A DNA stretch of 63,060 bases from Elusimicrobia bacterium CG1_02_37_114 (GCA_001871125.1 MNXB01000105.1:1-63060), one strand, 5' to 3'. Numbered from the stretch's first letter, positions 15,053 through 21,657 are shown. Numbers and translations are program-made. Notes: generated by a model not told the origin, from the letters alone.

Positions 15053-16628
15053 TTTTTGGAGAGTTTGATCTTAGCTCAGAATGAACGCTGGCGGCGTACC
15101 TAACACATGCAAGTCGAACGGTTCAGTATTTACAAGTAGTTGATTGAGTAGCAATACTCTTGATGCCATGAGTAGATGCTGAATAGTGGCAAAAGGGTGA
15201 GTAACATGTGGGTAATCTACCCTCAAGATGAGTACAACCCTGAGAAATCGGGGCTAATTCTCAATAGTATCCTGAAAACTTCGGTTTGAAGGGTTAAAGG
15301 TTAGCAATAGCGCTTGAGGATGAGCCCGCACACTATCAGCTAGTTGGTGAGATAATAGCTCACCAAGGCTATGACGGTTAGCTGGCCTAAAAGGGCGGTC
15401 AGCCACACTGGCACTGAGACACGGGCCAGACTCTTACGGGAGGCAGCAGTGAGGAATCTTGGACAATGGGCGAAAGCCTGATCCAGTGACGCCGCGTGGA
15501 GGATGAAGGTCTTCGGATTGTAAACTCCTTTTCTGGAAGAGGAAGTCCCCCGTTAAGCGGGGGGTTGACAGTACTCCAGGAATAAGCCACGGCTAACTAC
15601 GTGCCAGCAGCCGCGGTAATACGTAGGTGGCTAGCGTTATTCGGAATTACTAGGTGTAAAGGGCAGGTAGGTGGTTTGGTAAGTTGAAGGTGAAAGCCTC
15701 GATAAAATCGAGAGGGTCTTTCAATACTATCAGACTTGAGTGTAGGAAGGAGAATCAGAATTCCCGGTGTAGCGGTGAAATGCGTAGATATCGGGAAGAA
15801 TACCGATGGCGAAAGCGGATTCTTGGCCTACAACTGACACTGATCTGCGAAAGCTAGGGGAGCAAACGGGATTAGATACCCCGGTAGTCCTAGCCGTAAA
15901 CTATGGAAACTAGATATGGGAGGTATCGACCCCTTCCGTGTCGAAGCTAACGCATTAAGTTTCCCGCCTGGGGAGTACGGCCGCAAGGTTGAAACTCAAA
16001 AGAATTGACGGGGGCCCGCACAAGCGGTGGAGCATGTGGTTCAATTCGACGCAACGCGAAGAACCTTACCCGGGCTTGAAGTGCTAGTGGTATTCCCGAT
16101 GAAAATTGGGGAGACTCGAAAGAGAGCTAGTAGAGGTGCTGCATGGTTGTCGTCAGCTCGTGCCGTGAGGTGTATGGTTAAGTCCCATAACGAGCGCAAC
16201 CCTTGTCCCATGTTGCTATCCCTCGATAATATCGGGGGAGCACTCTTGGGAGACTGCCCTGGTTAACAGGGAGGAAGGTGAGGATGACGTCAAATCATCA
16301 TGGCCTTTATGTCCGGGGCCACACACGTGCTACAATGTTTACTACAGAGGGATGCGAGACCGCAAGGTGGAGCAAATCCCATAAAAGTAAACCCAGTTCA
16401 GATTGAGGGCTGCAACTCGTCCTCATGAAGTTGGAATCGCTAGTAATCGCTGATCAGCAGGCAGCGGTGAATACGTTCCCGGGCCTTGTACACACCGCCC
16501 GTCAAACGATGGAAGCTGGCTGCAGCAGAAGTGCCCCATTTATTGGGGCCCCAAGTTGTGGTTAGTGACTGGCGTTAAGTCGTAACAAGGTAGGCGTACG
16601 AGAACGTGCGCCTGGATCACCTCCTTTC
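15053..16628 (+). rRNA. rrs: 16S rRNA (ends approximate)
   Basis: agagtttgatc, gtgccagcagccgcggtaa, attagataccc, aagtcgtaacaagg, anti-SD gatcacctcctt. Confidence 0.99.
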
Positions 16629-16738
16629 TAAGGAGTCAAAGTTTTAGATTTGATTCTAGGTCGGTTCATTAGCTATACTAGTGTGCTCATCGGATTGCGA
16701 TAAGTTGTTAAATAATTGGTAACTATTCAGTCAACCAG

Positions 16739-16814
16739 TAGGAATTAAATCTTTAGCCTTTTAATAAAAGCCTAAAGGCTAAATTCCTATAAAAGCCTAA
16801 AGGCTAAATTCCTA
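16739..16814. repeat. Family C cluster in the ITS: one degenerate inverted copy plus two tandem 25-bp units
   Basis: taaaagcctaaaggctaaattccta at 16765-16789 and 16790-16814. Confidence 0.85.
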
Positions 16815-16827
16815 TTTTTAAAAGAAG

Positions 16828-16901
16828 GGGCCTATAGCTCAGTTAGCTAGAGCGCACCCCTGATAAGGGTGAGGTGAGAGGTGCAATTCCTCTTAGGCCC
16901 A
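16828..16901 (+). tRNA. tRNA-Ile(GAT)
   Basis: gggccta/taggccc acceptor stem, caccc-ctGATaa-gggtg anticodon arm; CCA not encoded. Confidence 0.95.
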
Positions 16902-16927
16902 TTAGTAAAAAGTTCTTGACATGGCAC

Positions 16928-17000
16928 GGGGATGTAGTTCAGCTGGGAGAACATCCGGTTTGCATCCGGAAGGTCAGGGGTTCGATCCCCCTCATCTCCA
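16928..17000 (+). tRNA. tRNA-Ala(TGC)
   Basis: ggggatg/catctcc acceptor stem with G3:U70, tccgg-ttTGCat-ccgga, gttcga T-loop. Confidence 0.97.
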
Positions 17001-19242: not shown

Positions 19243-19303
19243 CTGCGTATTCGCACGAATAAGTGCGAATGAGTTACGCAGGACGGCGAGAAGGTGAGCC
19301 GGC
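19243..19303 (+). repeat. Element G, copy 2, inside the L1917 intron
   Basis: ctgcgta-ttcgcac-GAATAA-gtgcgaa-tgagt-tacgcag-gacggc-GAGAAGGTGA-gccggc. Confidence 0.8.
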
Positions 19304-19340
19304 GGGACAATCAGCAGGAAAGACCTGAAATGAGGGCTCC

Positions 19341-19835
19341 ATGCGAACAGAAACAGGCTATTACTTAGCAGGTTTTGCAGACGGAGAAGGAAGTTTTAAT
19401 ATTTCTTTCAGACCGAGGCAAGATTATAAGTTACCGTGGAAAATCTCTCTCTGCTTTAACATTTCCCAGAAGGATAAAGTTATTCTGTCGTTATTCAAAC
19501 GTTATTTGGTTTGTGGAACATTAAGGAGCAGACCCGATGGTGTTTGGTATTACGAAGTAAATAACTTCAATGCGATATGGGAAAAGGTAATACCTTTCTT
19601 TAAGAAATATAGATTCTTGTCCGCTAAGAAAAAACGTGACTTCTCAAAATTTTGCCAGATAGCAGAAATGGTAAAAAAAGGGGAGCATCTTAAAGAAGAT
19701 GGTATCAGAAGAATTGTTGAAATAAGACGAGAGATGAATGACGGTGGTAAACGCAAGTATAGCAATACGGAGATCCTAAGTAAATTTCAGGAATCCCCAG
19801 AGACTATACGCCAGATCCCGATAACTCGGGAATGA
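19341..19835 (+). CDS. Single-motif LAGLIDADG homing endonuclease (L1917 intron)
   Basis: YYLAGFADGEGSFNI, FNISQK, IPFFKKY. Confidence 0.93.
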   Translation: MRTETGYYLAGFADGEGSFNISFRPRQDYKLPWKISLCFNISQKDKVILSLFKRYLVCGTLRSRPDGVWYYEVNNFNAIWEKVIPFFKKYRFLSAKKKRDFSKFCQIAEMVKKGEHLKEDGIRRIVEIRREMNDGGKRKYSNTEILSKFQESPETIRQIPITRE

Positions 19836-19890
19836 TATAGTCCGGTCTCCGATGAAAATCGGAGTTAACATAAACGAACGGTCCTAAGGT

Positions 19891-20563
19891 TAGTTTAATG
19901 CTAGCCTGTTCCGGTAGTAATATCGGAAGTAATATTTAACTATATGCGGGGAACTCCCCAAAAAATGTTTGATACTAGTCTATTCATTTGAATGGGACAG
20001 TAAAAAATCAACATACATGAGGACAATCCGCAGGGAAGGCATATTATGGATAATAATATGAACCCTCAGAGACTACACGTTGAATATCCGAATTGCAACA
20101 GCTTGACTCCTGACTGGATTGTGGGATTCGTAGACGGGGAAGGTTGTTTTCACATAGGGATAAATAAGAATGACGAAGTTAAATCCGGGTACCAGGTTTT
20201 ACCCGAATTGACAGTCGTCCAACACAAACGAGACATTCAACTTCTTTATCGATTACGCACATTTATGAAATGTGGCGTGGTAAGAAGTAATCATGGAGAC
20301 CGTTTCTGTTGGCGTGTCAGATGTCTTAAAAACCTTGTGGAAATAATTCTTCCATTTTTTGAAAAGCATCCATTGAAATCAAAAAAAAATATTGAATTTC
20401 ACAGATTTGCAAAGGTGGTGCGAATGATGGAGAAAGATAAACACCTTACCCAGGAAGGATTCCAGAAGATTATTAAAATTGCGGAAGAGATGAACAGGCA
20501 AGAGCAAAGAGAAATTCGGATAAAGATATAGTCCACACTTCGATGAAAATCGAGGATTTTGTG
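19891..20563 (+). mobile_element. Group I intron at 23S position L1931
   Basis: Follows ctaaggt (U1931), ends in G before agcgaaattcc; Q aatccgcag, R tcagagactacacg, S aagatatagtcc. Confidence 0.93.
20046..20531 (+). CDS. Single-motif LAGLIDADG homing endonuclease (L1931 intron)
   Basis: WIVGFVDGEGCFHI, TVVQH, ILPFFEKHPL. Confidence 0.93.
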   Translation: MDNNMNPQRLHVEYPNCNSLTPDWIVGFVDGEGCFHIGINKNDEVKSGYQVLPELTVVQHKRDIQLLYRLRTFMKCGVVRSNHGDRFCWRVRCLKNLVEIILPFFEKHPLKSKKNIEFHRFAKVVRMMEKDKHLTQEGFQKIIKIAEEMNRQEQREIRIKI

Positions 20564-21657
20564 AGCGAAATTCCTTGTCGGGTAAGTTCCGACCTGCACG
20601 AATGGCGTAACGAAATGAGAACTGTCTCGGCGGCAAACTCGGCGAAATTGTGGTGTCCGTGAAGACGCGGACTACCTGCGGATAGACGAAAAGACCCCGT
20701 GGAGCTTTACTATAGCTTAATATTGAATTACGGGGTAGGATGCGTAGCATAGGTGGGAGGCTTTGATTCCCCGATTTTGGTCGGGGAGGAGCCGCCAGTG
20801 AAATACCACCCTTTCTGCTTTGTGGTTCTAATTCTAGTCCGTGAAACCGGACGGAAGACAGTGTTAGGTGGGTAGTTTGACTGGGGCGGTTACCTCCCAA
20901 AGAGTAACGGAGGCGTTCAAAGGTACCCTCATCCTGAATAAAAGTCAGGAGTTGAGTGCAAAGGCATAAGGGTGCTTGACTGCGAGTCCGACGGGACAAG
21001 CAGGTACGAAAGTAGGACTTAGTGATCCGGTGGTTGCGTATGGAAGTGCCATCGCTCAACGGATAAAAGCTACCCCGGGGATAACAGGCTTATCGAGCCC
21101 GAGAGTCCATATCGACGGCTCGGTTTGGCACCTCGATGTCGGCTCATCGCATCCTGGGGCTGGAGCAGGTCCCAAGGGTTTGGCTGTTCGCCAATTAAAG
21201 CGGTACGTGAGCTGGGTTCAGTACGTCGTGAGACAGTACGGTCTCTATCTTCCGTAGGTGTTGGAAACTTGAGGGGAGCTGGCCTTAGTACGAGAGGACC
21301 AGGCTGGACAAGCCTCTGGTGTGCCTGCTATCGCGTCAGCGGTATTAGCAGGGTAGCCATTGCTTGGATAGAATAACCGCTGAAAGCATCTAAGCGGGAA
21401 GTCAACCCTAAAACAAGGTTTCCCTCCCGATGAAAGTCGGGACTGAAGGTCACCAGAAGACTACTGGTTTTATAGGTCGGGTGTGTAAGTCCAGTAATGG
21501 ATTGAGCTAACCGATACTAATCGACCGTGCGGCTTGGCCATATCTTTTGATCCAAAACATAAAAGTTTAAATGTACAGGACGTGGAAATTATTTTTGTAT
21601 TTCCTTGATTTTCCTGCCTTTTACTTTTTATAAAACAATCATTTGTTGAATTTAATT

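What the first reader, a model, noticed from the sequence alone, without database searches (positions are those of the whole stretch)
16093..21442. One CCGAT..ATCGG hairpin motif caps many unrelated rRNA helices and both introns
The identical 16-mer cccgatgcaaatcggg occurs in two different 23S helices (within 17250-17269 and 17397-17416). 18931-18950 contains the reverse complement of the intergenic ccccgataaatcgggg (48216, 56920). CGATGAAA-type tips occur in 16S V6 (~16093-16111), 23S 21425-21442, and the 3' hairpins of both introns (19847-19864, 20538-20555). Further variants lie at 16220-16238, 18395-18429 (nested with gtccgaatttggac), 19816-19831 and 20768-20787. Variable rRNA helices normally diverge independently. 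Convergence on a genome-wide repeat suggests a process that pastes or converts hairpin tips (inference).
Basis: partly seen in the sequence, partly recalled or inferred. Interest (0 to 1): 0.72.

Follow-up and report, generated by a model that had tools for sequence, protein, structure and literature searches.

The report
Genome-wide palindrome caps rRNA helices
In this uncultivated bacterium, a short palindromic hairpin that is scattered between genes across the genome also forms the tips of about a dozen variable rRNA helices, which suggests a REP-like repeat has remodelled the ribosome surface; the similar hairpins in the two introns are ordinary intron helices.

Summary
The rRNA operon (16S 15053-16627, 23S 17121-21541 with two group I introns) holds six perfect CCCGA-loop-TCGGG hairpins, against 0.04 in shuffles and 0-3 in 68 control operons. 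G·U and nested variants are additional.

The capped helices are h21, h33 and h39 in 16S, and H9, H16-18, H25, H45, H58/59, H63, H78 and H98 in 23S. These are the sites where E. coli rRNA tolerates insertions.

The motif is also a genome-wide repeat. It occurs 44 times in 470 kb of non-rRNA DNA (about 0.7 expected), and 36 of the 44 copies are intergenic. About a third carry the GTAG tag of REP elements. REPIN-like doublets and at least three RAYT-like transposase genes are present.

- H63 is an exact copy of the commonest module.
- h44 and the inner H45 hairpin each match two further modules within one edit.
- The whole H45 insert resembles an intergenic compound element.
- One palindrome sits in frame inside rplD.

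The intron hairpins are different. They are conserved P8/P9 helices shared with homologous introns in other phyla.

Best reading (about 0.5): REP-like palindromes were copied at the DNA level into tolerant rRNA tips. No close relatives exist to show the direction of change.

The parts
17250..17269 (+). 23S H9 tip (E. coli 131-148): GCCCCGAU-GCAA-AUCGGGGC. Same length as in other bacteria.
   Evidence: -16.6 kcal/mol, z -5.7; other taxa have different tips
17397..17416 (+). 23S H16-H18 region tip (E. coli ~272-290): GUCCCGAU-GCAA-AUCGGGAU. Its 16-mer is identical to the one in H9.
17743..17762 (+). 23S H25 extension (+27 nt versus E. coli ~545): GAUUCCGA-GCAA-UCGGGAG
   Evidence: H25 is an insertion-tolerant site
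18395..18429 (+). 23S H45 insert (+17 nt versus E. coli 1164-1185). The outer stem is GUCCCGAU/AUCGGGAC. Nested inside it is GUCCGAAUUUGGAC.
   Evidence: It resembles the intergenic compound element L107:2996 CCCGATGTTTTGTCCGAATTCGGACATTCGGG. The inner module GTCCGAATTCGGAC has 8 genomic copies.
18760..18778 (+). 23S H58/59 region: CCCUCGA-GAAA-UCGGGGGG, a G·U variant
18931..18950 (+). 23S H63 tip (helix about 25 nt shorter than in E. coli): UCCCCCGA-UUUA-UCGGGGGA. It is an exact copy of the commonest intergenic module.
   Evidence: (the 16-mer has 16 copies in non-rRNA DNA)
20768..20787 (+). 23S H78 tip: UCCCCGA-UUUUGG-UCGGGGA. The 13-mer GAUUCCCCGAUUU is shared with the intergenic module.
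   Evidence: 8 copies. Other taxa have CCCGG-type stems here, so this site is partly near-ancestral.
21425..21442 (+). 23S H98 tip: UCCCGA-UGAAAG-UCGGGA
16093..16111 (+). 16S h33 (V6) tip: UCCCGAU-GAAA-AUUGGGGA, with one G·U pair
16220..16238 (+). 16S h39 (V7) tip: CCCUCGAU-AAU-AUCGGGGG
15696..15714 (+). 16S h21 (V4) tip: CCUCGAU-AAA-AUCGAGAGG
16533..16549 (+). 16S h44 (V9) tip: GCCCCA-UUUAU-UGGGGC. It is one deletion away from a second genome-wide module, CCCCAATTTATTGGGG (14 copies).
17066..17108 (+). Compound hairpin in the 23S 5' leader: CAUCCCGAU-GUC-[AGAUUUC GUGA GAAAUCU]-AUCGGGAUG. It has the same frame as the H45 insert.
19816..19831 (+). Intron 1 (L1917) P8 hairpin UCCCGAUAACUCGGGA. 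It belongs to the intron, not to the host repeat.
   Evidence: Rfam alignment; shared with the L008 intron, whose host lacks the repeat
19847..19864 (+). Intron 1 P9 hairpin with a GAAA L9 loop
   Evidence: the family consensus CUUCCGA-GAAA-UCGGAAG occurs in many hosts
20538..20555 (+). Intron 2 (L1931) P9 hairpin with a GAAA L9 loop
   Evidence: the closest intron (L008) has CCUUGAU-GAAA-CUCAGGG
48213..48240 (+). Intercistronic (rpmJ-rpsM) copy of the 28-nt repeat TAACCCCGATAAATCGGGGAATCCCTGG
   Evidence: D9
56917..56944 (+). Intercistronic (PBP2-RodA) copy of the same 28-nt repeat, as the first unit of a mini-hairpin array
32761..32779 (+). rpsG-fusA spacer hairpin GUCCCGA-GUAAU-UCGGGAC, preceded by GTAG
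10670..10685 (+). Intergenic CCCGAA-CTTG-TTCGGG, one of a 10-copy subfamily. CCCCAA-CAAG-TTGGGG lies 54 nt downstream.
37680..37704 (+). Palindrome CATCCCGAT-TCAATTC-ATCGGGATG in frame inside rplD (encoding HPDSIHRD). It is part of an insertion of about 21 aa that solved L4 proteins lack.
   Evidence: its reverse-complement twin is at L134:6688
31672..31785 (+). REPIN-like doublet with 29-bp perfect terminal inverted repeats (GGGACGCTAC...GTAGCGTCCC). Its centre is CGTCCGAATTCGGACG.
   Evidence: (D10/D14); second copy at 41209-41339

Best explanation
The CCGAU..AUCGG caps belong to a genome-wide family of REP-like palindromic DNA elements. The core is CCCGA-loop-TCGGG. One subfamily reads GTAG-CGTCCCGAT..ATCGGGACG. 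The family also forms compound or nested hairpins and REPIN-like doublets, and the genome encodes several RAYT-like Y1 transposases.

The elements lie mostly between genes. Copies that arose inside essential genes survive only where extra or altered sequence is harmless. Those places are the tips of surface-exposed variable rRNA helices, the rRNA spacers, and a surface loop of ribosomal protein L4. Once part of the rRNA, the copies evolve under RNA rules, with G·U wobbles and GNRA loops.

Shown: the repeat family and its enrichment; exact or near-exact module matches at H63, h44 and H45; the rplD insertion; the RAYT-like genes.

Inferred: the direction of transfer (repeat to rRNA); the copying mechanism (single-strand hairpin transposition or a template switch, possibly aimed at hairpin loops); and whether the GNRA-capped tips (H9, H16-18, h33, H98) derive from the same source.

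The intron P8/P9 hairpins are not part of this. They are inherited intron helices.
For: Genome-wide repeat:
- 44 copies in 470 kb of non-rRNA DNA, against 0.087 per 56 kb in shuffles.
- It is the top GC-rich hairpin stem of the 1024 possible 5-mers.
- Only 2 copies occur with the two arms swapped (TCGGG...CCCGA).
- 36 of 44 copies are intergenic.

REP hallmarks:
- A GTAG/CTAC tag on 14 copies, as defined in PMC3733652.
- Inverted doublets with 29-bp terminal inverted repeats.
- At least 3 distinct Y1_Tnp / REP_Tyr_transpos-like ORFs.

Sequence shared with rRNA beyond the stem:
- H63 matches the module 16 of 16 nt, with 16 genomic copies.
- Three modules are matched within one edit in the window rRNA, against 3 such hits in 68 control operons (330 kb).
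- The H45 insert matches L107:2996 at about 26 of 31 positions by eye, including the nested GTCCGAATTCGGAC.
- The 23S leader has the same CCCGATGT-N-AG...CTATCGGG frame.

Other support:
- DNA-level mobility into an essential gene: the in-frame palindrome in rplD.
- Nested inserts inside the loops of intergenic copies.
- The capped helices coincide with experimentally insertion-tolerant sites in E. coli rRNA (PMC2441807; mapping).
- Other bacteria lack these tips.
Against: - Most capped helices keep the normal length (H9, H78, h33) or are shorter (H63, h44). The change is therefore a replacement, not a simple insertion.
- The GCAA version CCCGATGCAAATCGGG has 0 copies outside rRNA, and GAAA-looped versions were not seen among the intergenic copies listed.
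- The rRNA copies lack GTAG.
- The RAYT-like genes are not visibly flanked by the CCCGA hairpin. Only CGTCCC-containing half-sites and terminal inverted repeats are present.
- The 414 kb of metagenome loci are assigned to this species through shared repeats and one overlapping contig, not by a closed genome.
- One control (L068, Ignavibacteria) has 5-7 CCCGAC..GUCGGG caps but no such repeat in 14 kb of flanks. Caps can therefore converge without a repeat family.
- No relatives are available to show the direction of change.
Confidence: 0.5

Rival explanations
1. Convergent selection at the RNA level. A trans-acting factor (an RNA-binding protein, helicase or nuclease), or simply a favoured stable module, selects the same CCCGA(U)-tetraloop-(A)UCGGG hairpin independently in rRNA tips and in intercistronic mRNA. 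No DNA is copied between the sites.
For: - Helix lengths are mostly unchanged.
- The GCAA-looped version is rRNA-specific, with 0 copies outside rRNA.
- The substitutions in rRNA copies are G·U-compatible.
- Control L068 has several CCCGAC caps without a flanking repeat family.
- The intergenic copies sit between co-directional genes, where an RNA role is plausible.
Against: - The similarity extends into parts with no obvious structural need: the 3-nt bulge and the junction of H45 and the leader, the nested inner hairpin, and the GAUUCC flank of H78 and H25.
- An in-frame copy lies inside rplD.
- Three different intergenic modules each have an rRNA counterpart.
- GTAG tags, doublets and RAYT-like genes point to DNA-level elements.
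Confidence: 0.25
2. Copying in another direction or by another route. The caps were homogenised among rRNA helices by short-tract gene conversion or slippage (concerted evolution within the rDNA), and the intergenic family was seeded from an rRNA hairpin.
For: - The identical 16-mer in H9 and H16-18 has no copy outside rRNA.
- I1 and I2 share a 31-nt stretch at 84% identity at their 3' ends (D16).
- Nothing here shows the direction of change.
Against: - Tracts of 16-20 nt are very short for homologous conversion (established knowledge of RecA substrate lengths).
- The intergenic family is diverse, with several subfamilies, tags and doublets, and is far more numerous than the rRNA copies.
- The H45 compound has its best match in an intergenic element rather than in another rRNA helix.
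Confidence: 0.1
3. Ancestry plus coincidence. The tips are simply inherited in a deep-branching lineage, and their resemblance to each other and to the intergenic repeat is chance acting on GC-rich stems.
For: - This is true for the intron helices.
- H78 is close to the common CCCGG-type stem.
- 19 of 68 control operons carry at least one CCCGA hairpin.
Against: - 6 observed against a control mean of about 0.35 and a shuffle mean of 0.037.
- The window ranks first of 69 for rRNA hairpins that share stems with this genome's repeats: 13, against a control maximum of 9 and a median of 1-2.
- Exact or one-edit matches to three modules.
Confidence: 0.08

Closest known systems
REP / REPIN elements with RAYT transposases (GTAG-tagged palindromic repeats; PMC3733652, PMC8049555)
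   Same: - Short stem-loops with 5-13 bp stems and 2-20 nt loops, in high copy.
- Mostly extragenic and downstream of ORFs.
- A GTAG tag on one subfamily.
- Head-to-head doublets and clusters.
- Occasional intragenic in-frame copies.
- Y1 (IS200-like) transposase genes in the genome.
   Different: - Only about a third of copies carry GTAG.
- The cognate REP-RAYT pairing (a REPtron) was not shown.
- Several subfamilies share one core.
- No description of REPs as rRNA helix caps was found: the REP survey read (PMC3733652) mentions rRNA only as the 16S tree, and two literature searches found none.
Intervening sequences (IVS) of bacterial 23S rRNA at H9, H25 and H45
   Same: Lineage-specific extra or replaced hairpins at exactly these helix tips. 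H45 and H25 are lengthened here (+17 and +27 nt). Controls L008 and L061 show classical long IVS-like inserts at H45.
   Different: Classical IVSs are roughly 70-400+ nt and are cut out by RNase III, which fragments the rRNA (from my knowledge). Here the units are 16-35 nt, occur at about a dozen sites in both subunits, and match a genome-wide repeat. Excision was not tested and is unlikely for such short stems.
Rickettsia palindromic elements (RPE), and MITEs in the Nosema bombycis rRNA genes (cited in PMC3733652 and PMC10946416)
   Same: Small palindromic mobile elements that persist inside essential genes because they land in frame or at structurally tolerant positions.
   Different: RPEs and MITEs are about 100-150 bp or more. 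The elements here are minimal hairpins. The Nosema case is eukaryotic.
Insertion-tolerant sites and expansion segments of rRNA (Yokoyama & Suzuki 2008, PMC2441807)
   Same: The capped helices (h17/h21/h33/h39; H14-18, H25, H45, H58/59, H63, H78, H98) are the sites where random 31-nt insertions leave E. coli ribosomes functional.
   Different: Those insertions were made experimentally. Here a natural repeat family appears to have supplied the sequence, and usually without net growth of the helix.
Group I intron P9 hairpin with a GNRA L9 loop (Rfam RF00028)
   Same: The hairpins at 19847-19864 and 20538-20555 align to the terminal helix of the family model, with its consensus GAAA loop.
   Different: None. 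They are members of this family, so they should be removed from the 'pasted motif' list.

Membership tests
REP / REPIN-RAYT system | Short (20-40 bp) palindromic stem-loop repeated many times in one genome | tested here: met
   44 CCCGA-loop-TCGGG copies in 470 kb against about 0.7 expected
REP / REPIN-RAYT system | Conserved GTAG tetranucleotide at one end of the palindrome | tested here: inconclusive
   14 of 44 copies have GTAG within 0-3 nt upstream or CTAC downstream, against 1-2 expected by my estimate. Other subfamilies and all rRNA copies lack it.
REP / REPIN-RAYT system | Predominantly extragenic location | tested here: met
   36 of 44 copies lie outside stop-to-stop ORFs of at least 150 aa, and 10 lie within 40 nt of an ORF end
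REP / REPIN-RAYT system | Inverted doublets (REPINs) or clusters | tested here: met
   31672-31785 and 41209-41339 have 29-bp perfect terminal inverted repeats ending in GTAGCGTCCC; compound arrays
REP / REPIN-RAYT system | RAYT (Y1 HUH transposase) gene in the genome, flanked by its cognate REPs | tested here: inconclusive
   Three distinct ORFs hit Pfam Y1_Tnp (E about 1e-14) and NCBIfam REP_Tyr_transpos at 65-79 bits, below the cut-off of 80. Their flanks show CGTCCC-type half-sites or terminal inverted repeats, not full CCCGA hairpins.
REP / REPIN-RAYT system | Demonstrated mobility, or cleavage by the RAYT | not testable with these tools
   Needs population sequencing or biochemistry
23S rRNA intervening sequence (IVS) | Located at the tip of H9, H25 or H45 | tested here: met
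   Alignment to E. coli 23S
23S rRNA intervening sequence (IVS) | Long extended stem (tens to hundreds of nt) replacing the tetraloop | tested here: not met
   Net changes are only +2 (H9), +27 (H25) and +17 nt (H45)
23S rRNA intervening sequence (IVS) | Excised by RNase III, giving fragmented 23S rRNA | not testable with these tools
   No RNA data available
Group I intron core helices P8/P9 (for the intron hairpins only) | Alignment to the covariance model at the P8 and P9 positions, with a GNRA L9 loop after the GAUAUAGUC strand | tested here: met
   RF00028 at 69.4 bits (intron 2) and 36 bits (intron 1, below the gathering score). The hairpins align to model positions 160-218 and 237-253. 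They are conserved in homologous introns of other phyla.
Eukaryote-type expansion-segment coevolution (compensatory slippage) | Cryptically simple, slippage-generated motifs shared among growing variable regions | tested here: not met
   The caps are discrete palindromes of fixed sequence, with no simple-sequence runs and mostly no growth. The family definition is from my knowledge.

The most novel reading that the evidence does not exclude
A REP-like mobile palindrome family, moving through single-stranded hairpin DNA and inserting preferentially into the loops of existing hairpins, has repeatedly rewritten the tips of rRNA helices in both subunits. It has also reached an r-protein loop and the rRNA spacers. 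This would be a natural bacterial route by which selfish hairpins seed IVS or expansion-segment-like change in the ribosome.
Probability: 0.3. Interest if true: 0.8.

Novelty: new variant of a known kind. Interest (0 to 1): 0.66.

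Why it matters
Variable rRNA helices are usually treated as diverging by independent point mutation. The origin of bacterial IVSs and of expansion segments is still argued from indirect evidence.

In this genome the donor pool (a REP-like repeat family with candidate transposases) and the recipients (about a dozen helix tips, one r-protein loop and the spacers) can be read side by side. 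That makes the 'insertion of mobile hairpins into tolerant sites' model directly testable.

There is also a practical point. V-region sequences in such lineages may be partly non-orthologous to the homologous regions of other bacteria, which matters for 16S-based placement of deep-branching MAGs.

Tried and rejected
1. Close relatives. The orphan ORF beside the operon has no homologue. L10 has none above 39% identity. The two nearest L10 contigs have ordinary tuf-secE/L33-nusG-rplK-rplA-rplJ synteny without rRNA. The 'nearest SILVA relatives' test could therefore not be done.

2. The 80 genome loci reached through the intron endonuclease turned out to be distant hosts: rRNA identity is 67-79%. 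I used them as controls, not as relatives.

3. Strain variation. The five assemblies differ at 0-10 positions, none in a cap.

4. Assembly artefact: rejected for the same reason.

5. 'The intron hairpins were pasted': rejected.

6. An anchor-regex extraction failed for h21, H25 and H98 because of poor anchors. Those helices rest on the pairwise E. coli alignment only.

7. REPtron test. [quoted passage not shown]

8. Taxonomy by accession search in papers found nothing. The phylum was not determined.

9. Rfam found no known RNA in the 5S-rplJ interval.

10. The literature searches found no report of REPs inside bacterial rRNA helices. The library is incomplete, so this absence is weak evidence.

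Full report
**Layout.** The window is about 39% GC. It carries one rRNA operon:
- 16S at 15053-16627
- tRNA-Ile and tRNA-Ala
- 23S at 17121-21541
- 5S at 21659-21777

The 23S is 4421 nt long because it has two group I introns, each encoding a LAGLIDADG endonuclease. Alignment to E. coli places intron 1 (19130-19876) after U1917 and intron 2 (19891-20563) after U1931. Downstream come an orphan ORF, then rplJ-rplL-rpoB-rpoC and the ribosomal protein operons. The same species occurs in three NCBI MAGs and several ENA assemblies. Its rRNA there is 99.86-100% identical to the window.

All listed motifs are present at the stated coordinates.
- Six of the ten CCGAT..ATCGG matches in the window lie in the operon.
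- Nine of the fourteen CCGA-N3-12-TCGG matches lie in the operon.
- Perfect CCCGA-N3-9-TCGGG hairpins number six in 16S+23S, against a mean of 0.037 and a maximum of 1 in 300 dinucleotide-preserving shuffles.
- Sixty-eight control rRNA operons from many phyla hold 0 (49 operons), 1 (15), 2 (3) or 3 (1).
- Further copies with a G·U pair or a long nested loop bring the total to about a dozen sites.
- Each folds as a stable hairpin.

**Where the caps sit.** Pairwise alignment with E. coli rrnH places them as follows:
- 16S: h21, h33 and h39. h17 and h44 carry related GC-clamped hairpins.
- 23S: H9, the H16-18 region, H25, H45, H58/59, H63, H78 and H98.

Helix names come from E. coli coordinates. 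They agree with the table in Yokoyama & Suzuki 2008 (PMC2441807). That table lists the same helices as the places where random 31-nt insertions leave E. coli ribosomes functional. Only H25 (+27 nt) and H45 (+17 nt) are lengthened. H9, H78 and h33 keep the usual length, and H63 and h44 are shorter.

**Relatives.** There are none close enough to use.
- The neighbouring orphan protein has no homologue.
- L10 has no outside hit above 39% identity.
- The nearest L10 contigs have ordinary synteny without rRNA.
- The intron endonuclease has thousands of homologues at 74-95% identity.
- A genome scan with it returned 80 intron-bearing 23S loci from Omnitrophota, Chloroflexota, Acidobacteriota, Gammaproteobacteria and others. 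Their rRNAs are only 67-79% identical to the window, so I used them as controls.
- At the homologous helices the controls have diverse, unrelated tips.

The caps are therefore specific to this lineage. How old they are within it cannot be told.

**The introns are a separate matter.** The Rfam group I model aligns 19847-19864 and 20538-20555 to its terminal helix (P9), whose consensus loop is GAAA. It aligns 19816-19831 to P8.
- Homologous L1917 introns in other phyla carry CUUCCGA-GAAA-UCGGAAG at P9.
- The closest introns are in L008. They have UCCCGAUAACUUCGGGA at P8, and CCUUGAU-GAAA-CUCAGGG at P9 of the L1931 intron.
- The L008 host shows none of the repeat families.

These hairpins are inherited parts of the introns.

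**The intergenic repeat is real and large.** The repeat finder showed that CCCCGATAAATCGGGG is part of a 28-nt repeat. It occupies one slot in intercistronic arrays of mini-hairpins.

A metagenome scan with a 20-mer from those arrays returned 80 loci, which reduce to 414 kb non-redundant.
- One locus is the window's own operon at 99.86% identity.
- The others do not overlap the window, but they share its private repeat families.
- They agree among samples at 98-100% identity.
- I take them to be the same species, without proof.

In this sample plus the window's non-rRNA DNA (470 kb):
- CCCGA-N3-9-TCGGG occurs 44 times, about sixty times the shuffle expectation.
- It is the commonest GC-rich hairpin stem of all 1024 5-mers. 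Only 2 copies occur with the two arms swapped.
- Thirty-six of the 44 copies are intergenic.
- Subfamilies have loops TAAA/TTTA (14 copies), TGAA/TTCA (7), and CCCGAA-CAAG/CTTG-TTCGGG (10).

**REP-like character.**
- Fourteen copies read GTAG(CGT)-CCCGAT..ATCGGG-(ACG)CTAC on one side. GTAG at one end is the defining tag of REPs (PMC3733652).
- The window has two REPIN-like doublets with 29-bp perfect terminal repeats ending in GTAGCGTCCC.
- The sample encodes at least three distinct HUH/Y1 proteins. They match Pfam Y1_Tnp, and most closely NCBIfam 'REP-associated tyrosine transposase', at 65-79 bits against a cut-off of 80.
- Their flanks show CGTCCC-type half-sites and inverted repeats but not complete CCCGA hairpins. 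The REP-RAYT pairing therefore remains unproven.

**Links between the repeat and the rRNA that go beyond a shared stem.**
1. H63 is a 16/16 copy of the commonest module, which has 16 genomic copies. H78 shares the 13-mer GAUUCCCCGAUUU with it.
2. h44 is one deletion from a second module, CCCCAATTTATTGGGG (14 copies). The inner H45 hairpin is one G·U-compatible substitution from a third, GTCCGAATTCGGAC (8 copies). Matches within one edit to these modules occur three times in 68 control operons, against three modules in this one operon.
3. The whole H45 insert is CCCGATGTAAGTCCGAATTTGGACTATCGGG. It resembles the intergenic compound element L107:2996, CCCGATGTTTTGTCCGAATTCGGACATTCGGG. The 23S leader hairpin has the same outer stem, 3-nt bulge and junction around a different inner hairpin.
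4. Intergenic copies often carry other hairpins nested in their loops.
5. A palindrome with the same 9-bp stem as the leader hairpin lies in frame in rplD. It sits inside an insertion of about 21 aa that solved L4 proteins lack.
6. Counting GC-rich rRNA hairpins whose stem is also a repeated hairpin in this genome, the window scores 13. The control maximum is 9 and the median is 1-2.

**Interpretation.** The most economical reading is that a REP-like family supplies sequence at the DNA level, and that selection keeps only copies at tolerant positions. The rRNA copies then drift under RNA constraints.

The weak points:
- Most caps replace a tip rather than extend it.
- The GCAA version shared by H9 and H16-18 has no intergenic copy.
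- The rRNA copies lack GTAG.
- The direction of transfer is not established.
- One control (L068) shows that several helices can carry CCCGAC..GUCGGG caps without any visible repeat family nearby.

RNA-level convergence therefore remains a serious rival for the GNRA-type caps. I put the DNA-copy model at about 0.5 overall. It is higher for H45, H63, h44, the leader and rplD, and lower for H9, H16-18, h33 and H98.

**Comparison with known systems.** The family behaves like REP/REPIN elements, but membership is only partly established (see the membership table). The rRNA sites are those of classical IVSs and of experimental insertion tolerance, but the units are far shorter than IVSs and excision is untested.

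I found no report of REP-type palindromes forming rRNA helix caps. The nearest precedents are in-frame REP/RPE copies in protein genes, and MITEs in the Nosema rRNA genes. I rate it a new variant of a known kind.

Noticed in passing
window 4774-4876, 6178-6217, 14963-15044, 16764-16813, 32191-32263, 47818-47882, 49698-49752, 56913-56990: Intercistronic arrays of 12-16-nt mini-hairpins: AAGGGTAAACCCTT, AAGCCTAAAGGCTT, AATTCCWGGAATT, ACCCTTTAGGGT, and ATCCTTCAGGAT followed by TTTTAC. The stems covary and the loops (TAAA/TTTA/TTCA) are conserved. One array abuts the 16S 5' end and one is in the ITS. In the metagenome sample they form ordered composites with the CCCCAA and CCCGA modules. Function unknown.
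   Followed up: partly
window 19244-19308 and 22654-22719: Intron 1 carries a 65-nt insertion between GATAGGG and ACAATCAGCAGG that nine homologous introns lack. It is 80% identical to the 70 nt just upstream of the rplJ start, with 4 compensatory changes in 18 predicted pairs. These are the only two copies in 470 kb, and there is no Rfam match. It may be an rplJ leader structure duplicated into the intron.
   Followed up: partly
window 31672-31785 and 41209-41339: REPIN- or MITE-like elements with 29-bp perfect terminal inverted repeats (GGGACGCTACTTGAATTTTGCTACTTTTT), inside ribosomal-protein and rpoC operon spacers.
   Followed up: partly
window 37194-37877 (rplD), residues ~148-168: Ribosomal protein L4 has an insertion of about 21 aa relative to all solved L4 proteins. 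The 3' part of the insertion is the palindrome at 37680-37704, read in frame.
   Followed up: yes
window 21923-22675: A 250-aa ORF between 5S and rplJ has no Pfam domain and no homologue outside this species. rplK-rplA, which normally precede rplJ, are absent here, and the rRNA operon takes their place.
   Followed up: partly
L116:3840-4535, L161:68-811, L147:9074-9805, L103:789-1472: At least three distinct RAYT-like (Y1_Tnp) genes in contigs that share the window's repeat families. L103's copy is bracketed by the inverted repeats GGGGACGGTTCT/AGAACCGTCCCC.
   Followed up: partly
L068 (Ignavibacteria MAG), 16S and 23S: Five to seven helices are capped by CCCGAC..GUCGGG, with no such hairpin in 14 kb of flanks. 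It may be a second, independent case of cap sharing, or chance.
   Followed up: partly
L008:~5000 and L061 (23S H45): Long IVS-like insertions at H45 in two control genomes. The L008 insertion is made of short direct repeats (GACAGAGGACAGA / CTGACTTCTGAATT).
   Followed up: no
window 20089-20097 with 20515-20524: The intron 2 P8 stem UCCGAAUU/AAUUCGGA encloses the LAGLIDADG ORF. In intron 1 the ORF lies upstream of a short P8 hairpin.
   Followed up: no
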